Source: Deltaproteobacteria bacterium SM23_61 (GTDB lineage Bacteria; Desulfobacterota; SM23-61). From it: a stretch of DNA of 62,586 nucleotides. Positions 44,261 to 55,215 of the stretch are shown here, piece after piece. Where the stretch lies: the NCBI GenBank assembly GCA_001304105.1, contig LJUR01000002.1, positions 1-62,586 on the forward strand, in the 5' to 3' direction. Under the pieces are notes generated by a model. That model searched no databases. It was given only the letters and a program-made list of their open reading frames with translations, and had not been told where the DNA came from. Both the position numbers and the translations under genes were made by a program. Numbering within the stretch: position 1 is the stretch's first letter; each line of letters starts with the position of its first letter.

Positions 44261-44361
44261 CCCCTCGGCTTTTACCCAAATCCCGTCGGAACACCCCAAA
44301 ACAAAAAACTGATGGGGATACAGGTGAACTTAGCGCGGCTGCGCCGCAACCAAAGAAGATC

Positions 44362-44410
44362 ACCCCCTCCCTACCCTCCCCCCTCGAGGGGGAGGGGGAA
44401 GGTGGGGGGG
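44362..44410. repeat. C-tract/G-tract palindromic element (CCCTCCCCCCTCGAGGGGGAGGG type)
   Basis: Homologous copies lie at 51043-51092, and looser ones at 55126-55215. The flank shares gcggc.g.gccgcaacc.aa with the 51-kb copy. Confidence 0.8.
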
Positions 44411-44440
44411 ACGCGGATAAACACAGATAAAACAGGAATA

Positions 44441-47808: not shown

Positions 47809-48693
47809 CTAGGCCGCTCCGGCTTCTTTCAGCTTTTCCACGATGGAATCCTTGTCCCAGGCGCCCACATGGCGGTACATTTCCTTGCCCGTCTTGTCAA
47901 AAAAGATCAGGGTAGGAATGAGTTGGACCCGGTATTCCCGGGCGAGGTCTTTGTATTCGTACACGTCGATGATGAGAATTCTGGCCTTCTCGGCAAGCTC
48001 TTTTTCGATCTCTTTCAAAATCGGTCGAAGCTGTCGGCAGGGCATGCAGGAATTGGCGCCGAAGTCCACCAGAAGCGGCTTCCCGCTCTTGATCGCCTGC
48101 TGAAATTCCTCATTGGTGTTGGTGGGGGGCGGGAGGGCGGTTAAATCCTTCAGGCGGCTCTCATTGATGTCGATTTTCGCCTTATTCCTTAAAGAAGCCA
48201 GGTATTCCTCGACCTTTTCCTTCCCCTTGAGCTCCCGGATGGCCTCCTCGATCATCGGGGTCGCCTCGGCCAGGGACTTCTTTCCCATCTGGTCCTTGTG
48301 CTGCTTGTAGACTTCGGCCACCTCCTTGGGGTCGACCTGGATCTTGTCCAGGACTTCCTTCTTCACCAGGTTCTGCATGATGGACAGGTCAATGTCTTCC
48401 CCCCTGGCCTCAGGATCGGCCTTCACCCCCAATCTCTTCGCTTCCTGCAGGACGACTTCCTTGGTGATGACCTGGTCGAGATATTGCCTGGGCTCTTCCC
48501 GGAATACTTCCTGGAAGGGCGCGGGGATTTTTCTCAGCTCCCGGTCGAACTGGGCAACGGTGATCTTCCGGTCGTTGACCATGGCCAGGACTTGGCGCTC
48601 CGGGTTCCAGGTGAAAAATTTCAGATAACCGAATAGGATGACTCCAACCACCACCGCCAAGACCGGAATGATCCATTTCCAATGCTTTTTCAT
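47809..48693 (-). CDS. Membrane-anchored SurA-N-like chaperone domain fused to a thioredoxin domain (CMPC)
   Basis: N-terminal TM helix, then VNDRKITVAQFDREL... (SurA_N-like). The C-terminus is LLVDFGANSCMPCRQLRPIL...IPTLIFF (thioredoxin). Confidence 0.8.
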   Translation of the reverse strand: MKKHWKWIIPVLAVVVGVILFGYLKFFTWNPERQVLAMVNDRKITVAQFDRELRKIPAPFQEVFREEPRQYLDQVITKEVVLQEAKRLGVKADPEARGEDIDLSIMQNLVKKEVLDKIQVDPKEVAEVYKQHKDQMGKKSLAEATPMIEEAIRELKGKEKVEEYLASLRNKAKIDINESRLKDLTALPPPTNTNEEFQQAIKSGKPLLVDFGANSCMPCRQLRPILKEIEKELAEKARILIIDVYEYKDLAREYRVQLIPTLIFFDKTGKEMYRHVGAWDKDSIVEKLKEAGAA

Positions 48694-48932: not shown

Positions 48933-50135
48933 TCAATCCTTATCGACCCCCGCCGCGCTGATCCACCCCTTCACTTCTTCATCCTCGGGAAGAGCCTTCT
49001 CCATAGTTTGCAACTTGAAAAGGAAGTGGTTCCCCTGGATCCCGGCCTCTTTCGCCCGTTTCAGTTCTTCCTGGAGGGCAGTTCTTTGACGGGTGATCTC
49101 GCGGATTGACCGCTCACGGTGGGGGTTGACCTTATCGGGTTGCCTCTTCCTGGCTGTCTCCAGGCCGCGAATATAAAGGTCGAGGCCGTCGATCCTTTCC
49201 TGAAGGTACTGGACCTCTCCGGCGTCCCGGAAGGGCTTGGATGGGTCTTCCAGGGTCAACTGCAGCCGGCCCACATACATCCCTTTGCGGGAAGACTGAA
49301 AAATGTGGGTCATTCCGGCCCGAACGGCTCTCCGGGTAAAGCGTCCTTCATGACCTCCCAGGATGAAGTGAATCCCCGGTAGCTCTTTGGCCACCCTCTG
49401 GTCCTTGTAAAGGCCCAGGTCGGAAATAATAATGGCCAGGTCGGCTTTTCCCTTGATTTTCCCCAGGGTCTCCCTGGCCGCATCGATCGGGTCGGCGATC
49501 AGGATCCTTCCTTCATTGGCCCGCTGGATGGCCGGGCTGATCTCCGGTCCTGATTCGGGCGGCAAAAGCCCGACGAAAGCGATCCGCACCCCCCCCACTT
49601 CCTTTATCACATAGGAAGGAAAGATGGGGGATTTGGTGGAAGGATCCAGAAGGTTGGCAGATATGAGGGGAAGTCCCTGGGAATATTCCTGCCGCAGGAA
49701 GTCCACGCCCTGCAGGAGGTCCAGGCACCCCACGTTCACCGCCGCAGCGCCCATGTGGCGGTAGGCGCGGCCGATGATCTGGGCCTTCTTCAGCGCCTTC
49801 TCAGAATCGGAATCGTTTCGAAAGCTGAAGAAAAGATCCCCGGAATCCACCACCAGGGTTCGCTGATTTTCCCTTTGAACTTTCTCCACCCAAGCCACCC
49901 GCCGGGCCAGACCGCCCAGCACCCGGTCCCCTCAGGTCGGGCAGGGGAGGATGTAGCCGGTCACGTTGTTGGTGTGGAGAATCAGAATCTCCGTCTCTCC
50001 TGATTCGGCAGGCGGGGCGGGAAAAAGAAAAAGGGACCAGGCAAAGATGAAAGAAAGGATCCCCCAAAAACTCTTGGTTGCCGGAAACCATTTTTTCAAA
50101 GCGATGACCTCATCTTTGAATCTTTTCAATATCAT
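48933..50135 (-). CDS. Exported degenerate 5'-nucleotidase/metallophosphoesterase-like protein with predicted selenocysteine (C-P-T-U; TGA at 49932-49934)
   Basis: ORFs 49932..50135 and 48933..49922 share a frame across the TGA. Read-through gives ILILHTNNVTGYILPCPT-U-GDRVLGGLARRV...VVDSGDLFFS. The paralog at 52923..54314 has a TGA at the homologous position. The downstream ORF has no ATG or signal peptide of its own. Confidence 0.7.
49903..49918 (-). promoter_or_regulatory. SECIS-like hairpin
   Basis: The RNA reads UGGGC-GGUCUG-GCCCG and starts 13 nt after the UGA. The GGUCU loop resembles the E. coli fdhF SECIS apical loop. Confidence 0.6.
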
Positions 50136-50204
50136 CGGAATTATTGTAACACAACTTTACCGATCGCCGGCAGGAGCAGGCCGCCGAGGCGTGATGAGTC
50201 GCCC

Positions 50205-50621
50205 CTACCCTTCCTGGGCGGACAAAAAGCCGATGATTTTTTCCCGGATTTGATCCCTCAACTTCCGGAAGAAGGAGATCTTCTCCTCCTCAGTGCCCTT
50301 GACGGTCGCGGGATCGGGAAAGCCCATGTGCATCCTCCGCGTTCCGCCGAAGAAAACCGGGCAGCTTTCCGCCGCGTGATCGCACAGAGTTATGACAAAA
50401 TCGAATCTCTCATCCGCAAACTCGTCAATCGACTTGGATCGATGCCGGGAAATATCGATTCCCGCCTCTTTCATCGCAGCGATGACCAGGGGATTAACGG
50501 AAGAGGGCTCTGTCCCGGCGGAGAAAGCCTGCACCTTCCCCGCCAGGTCATGATTGACCAAGCCCTCGGCCATCTGGCTCCGGGCGCTGTTATGGGTGCA
50601 GATGAAGAGAACCCGTTTCAC
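50205..50621 (-). CDS. arsC: Arsenate reductase, thioredoxin-coupled LMW-PTP type
   Basis: CTHNSARS P-loop plus the downstream Cys pair (LCDHAAESCP). Confidence 0.9.
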   Translation of the reverse strand: MKRVLFICTHNSARSQMAEGLVNHDLAGKVQAFSAGTEPSSVNPLVIAAMKEAGIDISRHRSKSIDEFADERFDFVITLCDHAAESCPVFFGGTRRMHMGFPDPATVKGTEEEKISFFRKLRDQIREKIIGFLSAQEG

Positions 50622-50738
50622 TCTATGCTTCTCCTTCTATTCATCGCAATCGGAATCCCCATTTTCCCCTTTGCCGGTTGTCGGTTCCGGCTTTCAGGGT
50701 TCGCACGGGCATTTTTCTCCTATGGTTTTTTAATTTCC

Positions 50739-50972
50739 TTACTGGACCATTTTCTTGATCTCTTCCACGGAGGGAAGTTTCCCGGCCACTTTCACGGTTC
50801 CATCCACCACCAAGGCCGGGGTGATCATGACCCCGTAGCTGCTGATCTGTTTGATGTCTTTTATCTTCAAGACTTCGGCCTCGATGCCGAGTTCTTTGAC
50901 CGCCTGCCTGGCTCGATCCTCGAGCTGGTTGCACTTGGGTCAACCCATTCCCAAAACTTCGACTTTTTTCAT
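50739..50972 (-). CDS. Thioredoxin_3-type small redox protein (redox-active disulfide protein 2 family) with a U-x-x-C active site (TGA at 50940-50942)
   Basis: Not in the ORF track, because the TGA is at codon 11. The translation is MKKVEVLGMG-U-PKCNQLEDRARQAVKELGIEAEVLKIKDIKQISSYGVMITPALVVDGTVKVAGKLPSVEEIKKMVQ. The family consensus is GxGCxxC. Confidence 0.85.
50911..50925 (-). promoter_or_regulatory. SECIS-like hairpin
   Basis: The RNA reads GCUCGA-GGA-UCGAGC and starts 14 nt after the UGA. Confidence 0.55.
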
Positions 50973-51042
50973 TTTTTCCTCCCTAAATCTTGTATTGGAC
51001 ACAGATGAACACAGCGCGGCAGAGCCGCAACCCAAACGGAAT

Positions 51043-51092
51043 CCCCCCCTCCCTCCCCTCCCCCCTCGAGGGGGAGGGTTAGGGTGGGGGGG
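51043..51092. repeat. C-tract/G-tract palindromic element (same family as 44362-44410)
   Basis: ccccctccctcccctcccccctcgagggggagggttagggtggggggg. It is flanked by ACACRGAT-type short repeats (50996-51016, 51184-51217) and a CTCTGTG unit (51271-51293). Confidence 0.8.
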
Positions 51093-51305
51093 ATGCTTTT
51101 TGCCCAACAGAACTTAACGACTTTGCAAAACAGTAGTAGAGATTGACCTCACGCCTTACTCATCACTTTTCACTGCTTTTATTGGGACACGGATGAACAC
51201 GGATACACGCAGATAAGGATCAATCAAAAAAAAATAAAAGATTTTGCCAAATAGCGCGTAATCTTTTTCTTTGTGCTCTCTGTGACCTCTGTGCTTAAAT
51301 CGTTT

Positions 51306-52358
51306 TCAGAAAATGAAATTCCCGGTGAACCATCCTACCAAGGTCCCCAGAATCGTAATCAAGGGAACATAAACCAACCCCTTTTTCAGGCCAAAGACCT
51401 TCAGGATGGCCAGCATGTTGGGGAGGCTCATCCCGGGGCCGGTCAGGAGAAGGGCCAGGGCCGGCCCTTTGCCCATGCCCATTTCCATCAGCTTATGAAC
51501 GAAGGGTGCTTCGGTCATGGTGGCCATGTACATGATCTGGCCGATCAATGTGGCCAGGAAAGAAGGGAATATGCCCGACCCGCCCAGCCAGCTCTCGATC
51601 CACTGCTGGGGAAGAAGCTTCCCGATCACTCCGACGACGAACACCCCTCCCAACAACAAGGGAAAGATGATCCGGACAAACCACCAGCTCTCAGTCATCC
51701 ACTGGCGCATTTCCTCACCGGATTTGACCTTCCAGGCATAAAGGGCGACGATGACCATCCCCGCAGCCCAGACATACACTTTATGCAGGAAGGGCCCCTT
51801 TTGGACAAGGTAATTGGGGGCCAGAAGGTCGGCTACGATCAAGAGAAGGAGGATGACATCCTTGCGGGCCACGATCCTTTTCCCTCCAGGGTGGATGTCC
51901 ACTGCGGTCACTCTCTTGATCTCTTCCTTGCGGAAGGCGAGACTCATGACCCAACCCACCACGAAGGCCATGGCCAGGGCTGAAAGGACTCGGACCACCA
52001 CCATCTCCGTCCCCAGGATAGCCCCGGTATAGACCAGGGCCAGGATGTTGGCCGCCGGGGCCACCCAGAGAATGATGAAGGCCGCCCCGATCCCGCTTCC
52101 GCCGTAATACAGGCCGCTGGAAACGGGGATCACCGTGCAGGAGCAGGCGGCCACGAAAAAACTGCCCCCGCTGGCCAGGGTGAAGGATCTCAGTTTATTG
52201 GCGGCACTTCCCAGGTAATAAATGATGGTTTCCTTGGATATAAACGTAACCATGGCCCCGGCCAGAAGGAAAGCCGGTATCAGGCAGGTAATCACATGAA
52301 GGGCGATGTAATCCTGTAAAGCTTGCAAACCGGCATAAATCAATTCCCAGAAGAACAT
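51306..52358 (-). CDS. Predicted permease (ArsP/DUF318-type, PF03773-like)
   Basis: Multi-TM protein with ...VITCLIPAFLLAGAM...FFVAACSCTVIP... typical of this permease family. ATG at 52358 (alternative GTG at 52409). Confidence 0.75.
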   Translation of the reverse strand: MFFWELIYAGLQALQDYIALHVITCLIPAFLLAGAMVTFISKETIIYYLGSAANKLRSFTLASGGSFFVAACSCTVIPVSSGLYYGGSGIGAAFIILWVAPAANILALVYTGAILGTEMVVVRVLSALAMAFVVGWVMSLAFRKEEIKRVTAVDIHPGGKRIVARKDVILLLLIVADLLAPNYLVQKGPFLHKVYVWAAGMVIVALYAWKVKSGEEMRQWMTESWWFVRIIFPLLLGGVFVVGVIGKLLPQQWIESWLGGSGIFPSFLATLIGQIMYMATMTEAPFVHKLMEMGMGKGPALALLLTGPGMSLPNMLAILKVFGLKKGLVYVPLITILGTLVGWFTGNFIF

Positions 52359-52407
52359 TTTCTTGCGCTTCCTTTTCCCAATTTTGATGATCTCGTGAAA
52401 AGTCCTC

Positions 52408-52484
52408 ACTCCGGTGAAAACCGGAGTCCAGGATATTTATAGACCTTTGAAAATACAGGATTCCGGCTTCCGCCGGAATGACGG
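52408..52484. repeat. Double-hairpin REP-like element (GGAATGACG / CGTCATTCC family)
   Basis: ctccggtgaaaaccggagtccagga...caggattccggcttccgccggaatgacgg. Related copies lie at 55289-55372, 56807-56877, 57731-57805 and 62541-62586. Confidence 0.8.
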
Positions 52485-52522: not shown

Positions 52523-52846
52523 TTATATTTGCGCCAGGACCTTTCTTTGCTCCATCAGCTCCCGCTTCAGGAGCAGTCCCACTTTGTCCAATATCTCAAA
52601 GATTTCCGGGCCTTTGACCTTCACCATCACCTTGACCCCGTCTTTGCGGGTGGTGATCAGGTGGCTCTTCTGCATCGTGGAAATGTGCCGGGAAATATTG
52701 GACTGTTCCCCGTTGATGGCCGGCACAATTTCACAGATACATCTCTCCCCGTGGCGGAGCAGTTCCAGGATCTTCAAGCGCGTGGGCTGGGCAAGAGCTT
52801 TCAGGACTTCCGCCTTTAAATAAACCGCCCTTTCTTGCATATTCAT
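52523..52846 (-). CDS. arsR: ArsR/SmtB-family metalloregulator
   Basis: LKALAQPTRLKILELLRHGERCICEI...SNISRHISTM (HTH with the CxC metal site). Confidence 0.9.
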   Translation of the reverse strand: MNMQERAVYLKAEVLKALAQPTRLKILELLRHGERCICEIVPAINGEQSNISRHISTMQKSHLITTRKDGVKVMVKVKGPEIFEILDKVGLLLKRELMEQRKVLAQI

Positions 52847-52922
52847 TCTCCATGCATTTATGATTAATTAATCATAAATGCAAAAAAAATATGAGTCAAG
52901 CGATTTCTTAAACTCGGTCCCT

Positions 52923-54314
52923 TCACTTCGAGGCTGGGCAGCGCACTTTCGTGAGGGAGGGGGCGTAATCGAAGTTGGGGCTCTTGGCCGGGTTGTGGCA
53001 GAGGAGGCACTGCTTTTCGCCCACGGGGGGAAGCTTCTTCCCATCTTCTGGATGTCCCCTCCCGGGCCCATGGCAGGATTCACACTGGACATTCTCCAGC
53101 ACATCCCCAAAGCCGGAAACCTCCCCGAATCCGGTGGTATGGCAGGGAAGGCAGGTGTGGTCTCTTTCTCTCTTTTCACCGACCAGGGTTTGATAGGCCT
53201 TGGCATGGCCGGTCTTTTTCCAGTTCTCGTGCTGCGGCTGATGGCAGGAAAGGCAGGATGCCCCACCCATGTAATCGGAGACCGGGTAGGCATAGGTACC
53301 CTTTTGCATCCAGGGATCTTTTTCTGGGGAGCCGTTTTTCTTTTCCGCAAAATGCAGGGGCTTGGAGTCAGCCCGGAACTGGTTCACCAGTTTGGCCGTT
53401 TGGGGGTGGTCCTTATAGAAATCCCGTAGAGTTATGATCTGGTAATTGGACAAGAGGCGCGTTTCGTCCGGTTTCTCCTTGAGGAAAAACTCCATCTGCC
53501 CGAGATACTCTCCCCGGGTCCCGGCGGTGAGGATCTGGGCGTTATTGACCTCCACCGGCTGCCTTTTAAGCCCGCGTTCATGCCCGCTGACCACGAAGTA
53601 AACCTCCCGGAACGTTTCGGCGAGTTTCCGTTGCTCACTCTCATCCATGTGGGTAATAGCAATGATGACTTTGCTTTTTTTCTTTTTCAACTCACCGATC
53701 ACCTGCCTGGCCGCCTCGAGGGGGTCGGTTAGCCGATAAGCCGCTTTGTCATGGGGGTCCAGGCTTCCGGAAAAGCGGTTTGAAAGAAGCCCGAAAAGCC
53801 CGACCCGGATGCCCCCCTTTTCCTTGATGAGGTAAGGCCGGAACACCGGCTTTTTTGTCTTCAGGTCCTGGAGGTTGGCGAGGAGAAAGGCGAATTTCGC
53901 CTTTTGGCTCATTTTCTTCAGTTCTGCGATCCCCCAGGAGAGATCCACCTCCCCCGGAGTGAAGGCATCGTATCCCATGAGGTTGTAGGTTTGCAGGAAT
54001 AGGTTCGCCTTCAGGGCGGTAAGGTCCCGGTCTCTTTTGGGCAGGCCAAAAATTTCATGCCCGGCGGAATAGAGAAGGTCCCCGGAGTCCACCAAAAGGA
54101 CATTTTTTTTGTCTTTGCGCAGCTTTTCCAGGAAGGAAGCCCGCCTGGCCAGACCGCCAAGCTTGCCCCCCCCTCAGCCGCAGGGCTCGTACTCGCCGTA
54201 GAGGTTCGAGCTGAAGACCAGGGTGATGATCTGCTCCGGCTTCACCCCGGGGGGCTGCCCCCAGGAATTGAAGGGGATCAGGCAAAGGAAGAAAAAAATC
54301 AAAAGTCTTTTCAT
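52923..54314 (-). CDS. Exported degenerate metallophosphoesterase-like domain with predicted selenocysteine (C-G-U; TGA at 54174-54176), fused to a C-terminal tetraheme cytochrome c
   Basis: The frame from ATG 54314 gives MKRLLIFFFLCLIPFNSWG(signal)...VFSSNLYGEYEPCG-U-GGGKLGGLARRA...LLVDSGDLLYS and continues into ORF 52923..54095. The C-terminus has CLSCH, CLPCH, CESCH and CLLCH. Confidence 0.75.
54145..54160 (-). promoter_or_regulatory. SECIS-like hairpin
   Basis: The RNA reads UUGGC-GGUCUG-GCCAG and starts 13 nt after the UGA. Geometry and loop match the paralog. Confidence 0.6.
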
Positions 54315-54368: not shown

Positions 54369-55055
54369 TCAGTCCTTATCTTTCTTGCCCTTTGCCGCAT
54401 TTTCGTCCTTGGAAGACCCCGCGGGGGTTTTCCCGAAATTATCCCTCAGGATCTCCAGGGCCCTGATCACTTCCAGCCTGCCCACATGGGTCGCCTTTTG
54501 ATCTCCATGGACGATCACGCAGGAGGGGGTGGAGCGAATCTGATCTTCCTGCAGGTAACGATTCCAGAGGCTGAAAACCGGGTTCACATCGACGGGCTTC
54601 AGGGCGATCTCTTTTTCTGTCAGCAGATTGACCAGCTGGTCTTTATCGACCATCCTTTGCCGCGCCGCTTCAAAGAGAACCCTTCTCGTATGTAAGGCGG
54701 AATCAAAATCATTTTTCTGCCCCAAGGCGGAGAGAAAATACCGGACATACAAAACGGTATGCTCGCTGGCGGGGACATCGATAAAAGTGAGATGGACGGC
54801 TCCATCCTTGACCAAATCGAGGAGGAGGGGTTCAAGGTCGGGTTCCATGTCCCGGCAGGGGGAGCAGAAATAATCGCTGTAGAGCCGCACCTCGATCGTG
54901 CCGGTCCCGAAAGAAGGCAGAAAGTCTTCCTGCCCCCCCGTCGTTTCCCACCCGGCCACCCCCGAACCGAAAATCAGAAGAGCGGCCCAGGGGATCATCG
55001 CGATCCATTTCATGAATTTTTGGTTCCATTTGGGCTTCCGAATAAACCCATTCAT
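54369..55055 (-). CDS. Exported DsbA-like thioredoxin-fold oxidoreductase (CSPC)
   Basis: Signal/anchor sequence, YSDYFCSPCRDMEP active site, and a helical insertion typical of DsbA-like proteins. Confidence 0.8.
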   Translation of the reverse strand: MNGFIRKPKWNQKFMKWIAMIPWAALLIFGSGVAGWETTGGQEDFLPSFGTGTIEVRLYSDYFCSPCRDMEPDLEPLLLDLVKDGAVHLTFIDVPASEHTVLYVRYFLSALGQKNDFDSALHTRRVLFEAARQRMVDKDQLVNLLTEKEIALKPVDVNPVFSLWNRYLQEDQIRSTPSCVIVHGDQKATHVGRLEVIRALEILRDNFGKTPAGSSKDENAAKGKKDKD

Positions 55056-55125
55056 ACATCCTCCATCGGCAGCAAAATCTAAGAGCTAAAAGCTAGCCAA
55101 ATATATTTGAAATTTTTCTCTTGAA

Positions 55126-55215
55126 CCCTCCCCCCTTGATGGGGGAGGGGGAGGGTGGGGGTGAATCCGGAATGTATCCCCCTCCCCTTTATCCCCTCCC
55201 GCCAGGGGAGGGGAT
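55126..55215. repeat. Two C-tract/G-tract palindromic elements
   Basis: ccctccccccttgatgggggagggggagggtggggg and atcccctcccgccaggggaggggat. Confidence 0.75.

What the first reader, a model, noticed from the sequence alone, without database searches (positions are those of the whole stretch)
50739..50972. Unannotated 77-aa thioredoxin-like selenoprotein (UxxC) inside the ars operon
- The six-frame track misses this gene because TGA is codon 11.
- Read-through gives a full-length redox-active-disulfide-protein-2/Thioredoxin_3-type sequence in which the first Cys of GxGCxxC is replaced by U (GMG-U-PKC).
- A GCUCGA-GGA-UCGAGC hairpin starts 14 nt after the UGA.
- The gene sits between an ArsP-type permease and a thioredoxin-coupled ArsC. 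This suggests a dedicated Sec-containing reductant for arsenate reductase.
Basis: partly seen in the sequence, partly recalled or inferred. Interest (0 to 1): 0.62.

Follow-up and report, generated by a model that had tools for sequence, protein, structure and literature searches.

The report
Selenocysteine thioredoxin-like gene in arsenic operon
A small thioredoxin-like gene in an arsenic-resistance operon uses selenocysteine in place of its reactive cysteine; it belongs to a widespread selenoprotein group that published inventories do not list, and its usual gene neighbour is the ArsP export pump, not arsenate reductase.

Summary
On the minus strand, 50972..50739 encodes a 77-aa protein, MKKVEVLGMG-U-PKC…, with TGA as codon 11 (50942..50940). 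The hairpin GCUCGA-GGA-UCGAGC starts 14 nt after the TGA.

- **Family:** the read-through protein is a full-length member of Pfam Thioredoxin_3 and NCBIfam TIGR00412 ("MTH895/ArsE family"). Sec replaces the first Cys of CxxC.
- **Sec machinery:** the genome has selA, selB, selD and tRNA-Sec.
- **Conservation:** the TGA is kept in orthologues of 8 genomes of the same family. It is also present in 64 of 160 related public loci.
- **Hairpin:** every Sec form keeps it, and most Cys forms lack it. Synonymous codons inside it are fixed. The genome's own selD has the same GGA loop at the same distance from its UGA.

The gene is therefore a real selenoprotein gene.

The proposed role as a dedicated ArsC reductant is only weakly supported. 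Across relatives the conserved neighbours are ArsR, an ArsP-type permease directly upstream and a DGC-domain protein downstream. ArsC directly downstream occurs in 1 of 139 other loci.

The UxxC form of this family is absent from the 2022 and 2026 selenoprotein inventories. I class it as a new member of a known kind, of moderate interest.

The parts
50739..50972 (-). Selenoprotein gene: 77-aa MTH895/ArsE-family thioredoxin-like protein with a U-P-K-C active site. ATG at 50972..50970, TAA stop at 50741..50739.
   Evidence: Translation. Pfam Thioredoxin_3 96.4 bits, cut-off 24.8. NCBIfam TIGR00412 108.5 bits, cut-off 62. PDB 1ILO (MtH895) E=1.8e-19 over residues 1-76.
50978..50983 (-). Ribosome-binding site GGGAGG, 5 nt before the ATG.
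   Evidence: Sequence. GGAGG is kept at this place in 7 of 8 orthologues.
50940..50942 (-). In-frame UGA, codon 11, read as selenocysteine. It aligns with the first Cys of CxxC in Cys homologues.
   Evidence: Homologues listed with 'W' at this position translate only with TGA=W.
50931..50933 (-). UGC, codon 14: the resolving Cys of the UxxC motif.
   Evidence: Present in all 56 Sec and 122 Cys forms collected, whose search motif required it.
50911..50925 (-). SECIS hairpin GCUCGA-GGA-UCGAGC: 6-bp stem, with apical loop GGA at positions 24-26 counted from the U of UGA.
   Evidence: Folds. Pair counts on 14 Sec forms show 93-100% pairing in the five lower pairs of the stem, and the loop-closing pair switches A-U to C-G. 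Synonymous codons are fixed in 59 Sec genes. The genome's selD has the same loop and spacing.
50205..50621 (-). ArsC, LMW-phosphatase / thioredoxin-coupled type, with CTHNSARS and TLCDHAAESC motifs.
   Evidence: Pfam LMWPc. Best NCBIfam match is TIGR02691 at 133.5 bits, below its cut-off of 174.3. It is the only such gene found in the genome.
51306..52409 (-). ArsP_1-family permease with a membrane C-S-C motif (AACSCTV).
   Evidence: Pfam ArsP_1 231.6 bits. Sequence. A permease of this family lies directly upstream of the Trx gene in 89 of 110 related loci with enough flank.
52523..52846 (-). ArsR/SmtB repressor carrying a C-I-C motif in ERCICEI.
   Evidence: Pfam HTH_5; NCBIfam NF033788 79.6 bits, cut-off 55. 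Sequence.
52871..52899 (-). Promoter-like site TTGACT-17-TATGAT upstream of arsR.
   Evidence: Consensus scan, 10 of 12 matches. This is a pattern match only.

Best explanation
The gene is a real, translated selenoprotein gene. SelB and tRNA-Sec decode the UGA at codon 11 as selenocysteine, guided by the 15-nt hairpin that starts 14 nt downstream.

The product is a 77-aa cytoplasmic thioredoxin-fold protein of the MTH895/ArsE family (TIGR00412). The exposed, attacking Cys of the CxxC site is replaced by Sec, giving U-P-K-C. It is the third gene of an ArsR-headed arsenic operon (arsR, arsP-type permease, trxU, arsC).

Inferred: it acts as a selenol/thiol oxidoreductase that serves the widespread ArsR-ArsP-Trx3(-DGC) cassette. 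It most likely keeps thiols in the reduced, arsenical-competent state or passes reducing equivalents to them. The candidate thiols are the permease's C-S-C motif and, in relatives, the Cys-rich DGC protein. In this particular operon, which has lost DGC and gained ArsC next door, it may also recycle the ArsC Cys80-Cys87 disulfide.

Shown: gene, Sec codon, SECIS, Sec machinery, family membership, synteny. Inferred: the redox partners and the direction of electron flow.
For: **Family membership.** Thioredoxin_3 1e-27; TIGR00412 108.5 bits against a cut-off of 62; 1ILO E=1.8e-19.

**Sec machinery in the same genome.** selA 635.7 bits, selB 369 bits, selD 373.6 bits (itself with an in-frame TGA), and tRNA-Sec with anticodon TCA.

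**Conservation of the TGA.** It is conserved in 8 genomes of the same family at 64-90% identity, and Cys is found outside that family. 64 of 160 related loci are Sec forms.

**Hairpin.**
- It is kept in 56 of 56 Sec forms against 10 of 122 Cys forms.
- The closing pair shows a compensatory A-U to C-G change.
- In 59 Sec genes, Leu is CTC/CTT in 59 of 59 inside the hairpin against 67 of 242 elsewhere; Arg is CGA/CGG in 59 of 59 against 0 of 20; Gln is CAG in 57 of 59 against 28 of 58.
- selD of this genome has a GGA loop at the identical positions 24-26.

**Synteny.** ArsP_1 is directly upstream in 32 of 34 Sec loci and 57 of 76 Cys loci. DGC is directly downstream in 36 of 54 Sec loci.

**Other.** The family is named ArsE, an organoarsenical-resistance protein, and is up-regulated with ArsP under arsenic in P. 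mercurii (bioRxiv 10.1101/2022.10.17.512643). There is no signal peptide: residue 1 aligns with residue 1 of the cytoplasmic MtH895.
Against: - There is no protein-level evidence of Sec insertion.
- No Rfam family matched the hairpin. The local fold is not significant on energy alone (z = -1.7).
- Covariation is limited to one pair because the Sec forms are closely related.
- Close Cys relatives (L050, L057, L152) also keep the hairpin. Some of its conservation could therefore reflect recent common ancestry.
- The functional link to ArsP rests on gene order only.
- A 334-nt spacer with a strong GC palindrome separates arsP from this gene. Co-transcription with arsR-arsP is therefore not shown.
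- The biochemical role of ArsE-family proteins could not be read from the primary paper.
Confidence: 0.6

Rival explanations
1. One reading: the protein is a dedicated selenol reductant of the adjacent thioredoxin-coupled ArsC. It reduces the Cys80-Cys87 disulfide after each arsenate turnover, and this is its main job.
For: ArsC lies 117 nt downstream on the same strand. It has the CX5R loop plus the two distal Cys typical of thioredoxin-coupled ArsC, and its best NCBIfam match is 'arsenate reductase (thioredoxin)'. It is the only such ArsC in the genome, and no ACR3 was found, so this four-gene operon may be the whole ars system. Sec at the attacking position is what a fast disulfide reductant would have.
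Against: ArsC is directly downstream in 0 of 54 other Sec loci and 1 of 85 Cys loci. It lies within 2.4 kb downstream in only 4 of 29 Sec loci and 12 of 70 Cys loci, whereas ArsP is upstream in 75-94%. The family therefore works without ArsC. Established knowledge (my recollection): housekeeping thioredoxin suffices for pI258-type ArsC in S. aureus and B. subtilis.
Confidence: 0.22
2. The U-x-x-C site is not mainly a redox disulfide. It is a selenol-thiol binding site for trivalent (organo)arsenicals, and the protein acts as a cytoplasmic chaperone that hands them to the C-S-C motif of the ArsP permease.
For: The gene is tightly and almost invariably adjacent to the permease. A parallel pair exists: the thioredoxin-like selenoprotein SaoT and the ArsP-family exporter SaoE, for which direct interaction with metal species and chaperoning to the exporter were proposed (bioRxiv 10.1101/2022.07.06.499078). 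The 2026 review notes that many Sec residues in metal and metalloid systems may be ligands (PMC13188914).
Against: No binding data exist. The site is an ordinary CxxC-type site. From memory, unchecked: the homologue MtH895 behaves as a thioredoxin. A two-ligand site binds As(III) less well than the three-thiol sites of ArsR or ArsD.
Confidence: 0.15
3. The TGA is a true stop. The locus is a pseudogene or a 10-codon leader peptide, and the downstream reading frame is not translated.
For: Standard gene callers stop here. No proteomic evidence is available.
Against: The TGA is conserved at the same codon in 64 loci, and purifying selection acts on both sides of it. There is no alternative start codon until Met49. 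The hairpin shows selection at synonymous sites. The Sec machinery is complete. Cys occupies this position in homologues.
Confidence: 0.03

Closest known systems
MTH895/ArsE family thioredoxin-like protein (NCBIfam TIGR00412; Pfam PF13192 Thioredoxin_3; structure 1ILO of MtH895), Cys forms
   Same: Full-length match, same ~77-aa single domain, active site at residues 11-14. The gene context is the same, ArsR-ArsP-Trx3(-DGC), as in P. mercurii ND132 operon C.
   Different: The first active-site Cys is encoded by UGA (Sec) with a SECIS hairpin. The NCBIfam name carries no '(seleno)protein' tag, unlike SaoT or the UshA-like models.
Thioredoxin-like selenoprotein SaoT with efflux transporter SaoE (SAO locus; Haft and Gwadz preprint 2022)
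   Same: A small thioredoxin-fold protein with UxxC in some members, encoded next to an ArsP-family permease that has a C-S-C motif, in a metal or metalloid context.
   Different: It is a different family: P0002 scores 19.5 bits against a cut-off of 65 for SaoT, and the permease scores 98.8 against 325 for SaoE. The rest of the nine-gene SAO operon is absent, and this is an ArsR/ArsC arsenic context.
[quoted passage not shown]
   Same: Same Pfam domain, and also a selenoprotein with a bacterial SECIS.
   Different: In those proteins Sec lies in an N-terminal extension (CxU or UxC) outside the CxxC site. Here there is no extension and Sec replaces the first Cys of CxxC itself. The taxa (spirochaetes) and gene context also differ.
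Sec-containing thioredoxin (PF00085, UxxC) and glutaredoxin (PF00462, UxxC), the experimentally verified bacterial selenoproteins
   Same: Thioredoxin fold, with Sec at the attacking position of UxxC, so the same chemistry is expected.
   Different: They are different sequence families; neither Pfam model matched at E<=0.01. Those proteins are general redox proteins, not ars-operon components.

Membership tests
Bacterial selenoprotein gene (UGA decoded as Sec) | In-frame UGA aligned with Cys in homologues | tested here: met
   In 121 close homologues the column is C (66) or TGA (55; 54 are listed as W). The W entries translate only with TGA=W.
Bacterial selenoprotein gene (UGA decoded as Sec) | UGA conserved across species, with purifying selection on both sides | tested here: met
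   Present in 8 genomes of the same family at 64-90% identity and in 64 of 160 public loci.
Bacterial selenoprotein gene (UGA decoded as Sec) | SECIS hairpin immediately downstream of the UGA, with guanosine(s) in the apical loop (PMC2398784) | tested here: met
   Stem at positions 18-23 and 27-32, loop GGA at 24-26. Kept in 56 of 56 Sec forms. Synonymous sites are constrained. selD of the same genome has the same loop and spacing. No Rfam model matched.
Bacterial selenoprotein gene (UGA decoded as Sec) | selA, selB, selD and tRNA-Sec present in the genome | tested here: met
   All score above their curated cut-offs.
Bacterial selenoprotein gene (UGA decoded as Sec) | Selenium demonstrated in the protein | not testable with these tools
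   This needs 75Se labelling or mass spectrometry.
MTH895/ArsE family (TIGR00412 / Thioredoxin_3) | HMM score above the curated cut-off over the full length | tested here: met
   TIGR00412 108.5 bits against 62, profile positions 1-74 of 75. PF13192 96.4 bits against 24.8.
MTH895/ArsE family (TIGR00412 / Thioredoxin_3) | Thioredoxin fold with the redox motif at residues ~11-14 | tested here: met
   Sequence alignment to the solved structure 1ILO, E=1.8e-19, residues 1-76 to 1-76. No structure was predicted here.
MTH895/ArsE family (TIGR00412 / Thioredoxin_3) | ArsE function (organoarsenical resistance) | not tested
   Known only from the name and from statements in bioRxiv 10.1101/2022.10.17.512643 and PMC9144182. 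The primary paper is not held in the library.
SaoT (NF040730) | HMM score above the cut-off, and SAO operon context | tested here: not met
   19.5 bits against 65. The permease scores 98.8 against 325 for SaoE.
Brachyspira Thioredoxin_3 selenoproteins Sec.1/Sec.2 | Sec in an N-terminal extension (CxU or UxC) preceding the thioredoxin domain | tested here: not met
   There is no extension. Sec is residue 11, inside the domain, at the CxxC site.
Dedicated thioredoxin for ArsC | Consistent co-occurrence or adjacency with a thioredoxin-coupled ArsC | tested here: not met
   ArsC is directly downstream in 1 of 139 other loci, and within 2.4 kb downstream in 16 of 99.

The most novel reading that the evidence does not exclude
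The selenol-thiol pair of this ArsE-family protein binds trivalent arsenicals directly and delivers them to the C-S-C site of the ArsP permease. That would make it a selenium-based arsenic chaperone, and the frequent Cys-to-Sec switching in the family would tune arsenical affinity rather than redox rate. It would be the first selenoprotein metalloid chaperone, and a direct molecular link between selenium and arsenic detoxification in anaerobic sediments.
Probability: 0.15. Interest if true: 0.72.

Novelty: new member of a known kind. Interest (0 to 1): 0.45.

Why it matters
**Annotation.** UxxC thioredoxin-fold selenoproteins are a familiar kind, so the chemistry is not surprising. This particular family, TIGR00412/ArsE with Sec in the CxxC site, is missing from the two most complete inventories:
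- the 2022 list (PMC9312934);
- the 119 families listed in May 2026 (PMC13188914).

Yet Sec forms make up about 40% of the closest public relatives. They are either truncated by gene callers or mistranslated with Trp. Recognising them fixes a recurrent annotation error.

**Biology.** It adds a selenoprotein to the arsenic-resistance toolkit, beside Sec-ArsM and Sec-ArsC. It also gives a natural Sec/Cys series for testing what the untested ArsP-Trx3-DGC cassette does.

Tried and rejected
- **Rfam.** A scan of 50000-52000 at E<=10 found no SECIS family. It gave only spurious miRNA-type hits on the GC palindrome at 51040-51095.
- **Folding energy.** Energy alone is not significant (z = -1.7 for 66 nt). 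I therefore relied on comparative evidence.
- **Longer lower helix.** The MFE structure pairs the UGA with GGUCAA, but this helix is not conserved in orthologues and I dropped it.
- **Sec/Cys tree.** A tree of 121 homologues is too poorly resolved (76 columns) to count switches. The best tree needs 24 changes, but well-supported branches force only 2.
- **Transcripts.** The search found only soil metatranscriptome contigs of relatives, less than 90% identical. One 190-nt contig spans the start codon, the TGA and the hairpin, with no listed change in 50911-50972. This is weak support and does not come from this organism.
- **Primary literature.** The ArsEFG paper could not be read, so ArsE biochemistry is quoted second-hand.
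- **Mis-set coordinates.** My first guess at the SECIS positions of the two UshA-like genes was wrong. I redid it.
- **GOS_C.** I considered the 'hypothetical protein GOS_C' (NF045500, UxxC) as a prior description. P0002 does not hit that model at E<=0.01.

Full report
**1. The observation**

The coordinates are right, but the gene is on the minus strand. Translating 50972..50739 with TGA=U gives a 77-residue protein, MKKVEVLGMG-U-PKCNQLEDRA…KKMVQ*, with the single TGA as codon 11 at 50942..50940.

- A GGGAGG ribosome-binding site lies 5 nt before the ATG.
- The neighbours, all on the minus strand, are ArsR (52846..52523), an ArsP_1-family permease (52409..51306) and a low-molecular-weight-phosphatase-type ArsC (50621..50205).
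- A promoter-like TTGACT-17-TATGAT precedes arsR.

Contigs from three independent marine-sediment or seawater runs cover 50615-51067 without a single difference, so the TGA is not an assembly error. One of those runs may be the sample the window was assembled from.

**2. What the protein is**

The read-through protein is a full-length member of two curated families:
- Pfam Thioredoxin_3: 96.4 bits, cut-off 24.8.
- NCBIfam TIGR00412, currently named 'MTH895/ArsE family thioredoxin-like protein': 108.5 bits, cut-off 62.

It aligns residue for residue (1-76 to 1-76, E=1.8e-19) with the solved structure of MtH895, PDB 1ILO. It has no N-terminal extension or signal peptide, so it should be cytoplasmic. 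Sec takes the place of the first Cys of CxxC. By established knowledge of thioredoxin-fold proteins, that Cys is the exposed attacking nucleophile.

**3. Is the UGA read as Sec?**

*Machinery.* The 4.2-Mb assembly is 88% complete and 7% contaminated. It encodes:
- SelA (635.7 bits), SelB (369 bits) and SelD (373.6 bits, itself with an in-frame TGA);
- a tRNA-Sec with anticodon TCA.

*Conservation.* A six-frame search of 60 relatives found an orthologue with 'one TGA inside' in 8 genomes of the same family, at 64-90% identity. Every more distant homologue in the phylum has Cys. The TGAs align exactly, and the ten codons upstream differ almost only at synonymous positions.

*Database forms.* Of the 120 closest clusters in the public protein collection, 54 carry 'W' at this column. 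The DNA shows that these are TGA codons read with a Trp-recoding table. Over 160 loci fetched from species-representative genomes and metagenomes, 64 are Sec forms. Sec and Cys forms are interleaved within one clade of close relatives.

**4. The hairpin**

- *Sec against Cys forms.* In 178 distinct family genes, all 56 Sec forms keep 5 or 6 of the 6 possible pairs at the fixed position. The 122 Cys forms centre on 2 pairs, and only 10 reach 5 (Fisher p = 2e-36, sequences not independent).
- *Variants.* Three hairpin variants occur: GCUCGA-GGA-UCGAGC, GCUCGC-GGA-GCGAGC and GCUCG-AGGAR-CGAGC. The loop-closing pair switches A-U to C-G, and G-U wobbles are tolerated.
- *Synonymous sites in 59 Sec genes.*

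| Codon | In the hairpin | Elsewhere in the same genes |
|---|---|---|
| Leu as CTC/CTT | 59 of 59 | 67 of 242 |
| Arg as CGA/CGG | 59 of 59 | 0 of 20 |
| Gln as CAG | 57 of 59 | 28 of 58 |

- *Internal control.* The selD gene of this same genome has a hairpin whose GGA loop sits at exactly the same positions, 24-26 from the U of UGA. The two UshA-like selenoprotein genes in the window have GGUCUG loops at positions 22-27.
- *Agreement with the literature.* Guanosines in the apical loop of a hairpin immediately downstream of the UGA are the accepted bacterial SECIS signature (PMC2398784).
- *Caveats.* No Rfam model matches. The fold energy alone is unremarkable. Three close Cys relatives still carry the hairpin, probably as recent Sec-to-Cys conversions.

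I put the probability that this is a genuine selenoprotein gene at about 0.93.

**5. What it does**

The comparative data point elsewhere:

| Neighbour | Sec loci | Cys loci |
|---|---|---|
| ArsP_1 permease directly upstream, same strand | 32 of 34 | 57 of 76 |
| DGC-domain (PF08859-type) Cys-rich protein directly downstream | 36 of 54 | 28 of 85 |
| ArsC directly downstream | 0 of 54 | 1 of 85 |
| ArsC within 2.4 kb downstream | 4 of 29 | 12 of 70 |

An ArsR gene heads the unit in most loci. In the same-genus relative the order is ArsR-ArsP-TrxU-DGC-…-CcdA-like-ACR3-ArsC.

This cassette is the one called ArsR5-ArsP-ArsE-DGC in Pseudodesulfovibrio mercurii, where it is induced by arsenic (bioRxiv 10.1101/2022.10.17.512643). 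The family's core role is therefore tied to the ArsP-type permease, which here carries the C-S-C motif, and not to ArsC.

In this window the cassette has no DGC gene and ArsC sits 117 nt downstream. The genome has no ACR3, and this is its only LMWP-type ArsC. A local, additional role in recycling ArsC remains plausible (about 0.2-0.3) but is not the family's function.

A third reading is direct binding of arsenicals by the selenol-thiol pair and hand-over to the permease. It is suggested by the parallel SaoT/SaoE pair and is untested.

**6. Comparison with what is known**

- UxxC thioredoxin-fold selenoproteins are a well-known kind (Sec-Trx, Sec-Grx, Prx-like, DsbA-like and others).
- For Pfam PF13192, the only selenoproteins in the 2022 list (PMC9312934) and in the 119-family list of May 2026 (PMC13188914) are the Brachyspira Sec.1 and Sec.2 proteins. 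Their Sec lies in an N-terminal extension, not in the CxxC (PMC5330540).
- SaoT is a different family: 19.5 bits against a cut-off of 65.
- The NCBIfam name of TIGR00412 carries no '(seleno)protein' tag, unlike the SaoT and UshA-like models.

I could not query GenBank or RefSeq for records that bear U, so prior silent annotation cannot be excluded.

**7. Verdict**

The identification as a selenoprotein is strongly supported. The proposed ArsC-specific function is only weakly supported.

This is a new, apparently unlisted Sec subfamily of a known protein family and a known chemical kind, and it is widespread in anaerobic-sediment Thermodesulfobacteriota (record titles; sample types). Interest is moderate at 0.45. 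It would be higher if the selenol turned out to be an arsenical ligand.

Noticed in passing
window 52923-54314 (-), TGA at 54176..54174: Just upstream of arsR lies a second selenoprotein gene. It is a UshA-like (metallophosphoesterase-like) domain with an EPCGUGG motif, fused to a C-terminal multihaem cytochrome c. Read through, it scores 336.6 bits against a cut-off of 275 for NF041198 'UshA-like (seleno)protein'. Its SECIS hairpin has loop GGUCUG at positions 22-27.
   Followed up: partly
window 48933-50135 (-), TGA at 49934..49932: Directly downstream of arsC lies a paralogous UshA-like gene with an LPCPTUG motif and a signal-like N-terminus. It scores 221.8 bits for NF041198, below the cut-off of 275, and 78.1 bits for 'UshA-like family 2', cut-off 140. 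It has the same GGUCUG SECIS loop. That makes three selenoprotein genes within 5.4 kb.
   Followed up: partly
window 51032-51096; also 44350-44414 and 55125-55161: A GC-rich palindromic element (CCCCTCCC…CTCGAG…GGGAGGGG) is repeated three times in the window. It reaches 300-1000x word depth in metagenome contigs, against about 7x for its flanks, so it is a REP-like dispersed repeat. One copy sits in the 334-nt spacer between arsP and the Sec-Trx gene. It produced spurious miRNA hits in Rfam.
   Followed up: partly
G000:C181:39795-40721 (locus L134): The genome's selD is itself a selenoprotein (in-frame TGA, motif GAGUASK). Its SECIS hairpin CUCCAGG-GGA-CCUGGAG has the same loop and the same spacing as the Trx gene.
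   Followed up: yes
public protein collection (P0012, P0020, P0022 … 54 of the 120 best clusters): Sec forms of this family are stored with Trp at the Sec position, because gene callers applied a TGA=Trp code to short contigs. Some also run past a TGA stop into false C-terminal tails (e.g. P0012, P0074, P0119).
   Followed up: yes
whole genome G000: No ACR3 (TIGR00832) was found in the 88%-complete assembly. The only LMWP-type ArsC is the one in this operon. The ArsP-type permease may therefore be the organism's only dedicated arsenic exporter. ArsB was not searched.
   Followed up: partly
loci L054, L056, L058, L059 (relatives), downstream of the Sec-Trx gene: In relatives the Sec-Trx gene is followed by a DGC-domain Cys-rich protein, a radical-SAM/SPASM protein (427 aa), a small ThiS/MoaD-like ORF, a CcdA/DsbD-like membrane protein, ACR3 and ArsC. 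The window carries a shortened version of this larger arsenic island.
   Followed up: partly
window 47809-48693 (-) and 54369-55055 (-): Two further thiol-redox genes flank the region. One is a 294-aa protein with a C-terminal thioredoxin-like CMPC site, and the other is a 228-aa DsbA-like protein with CSPC. I read them from ORF translations only.
   Followed up: no
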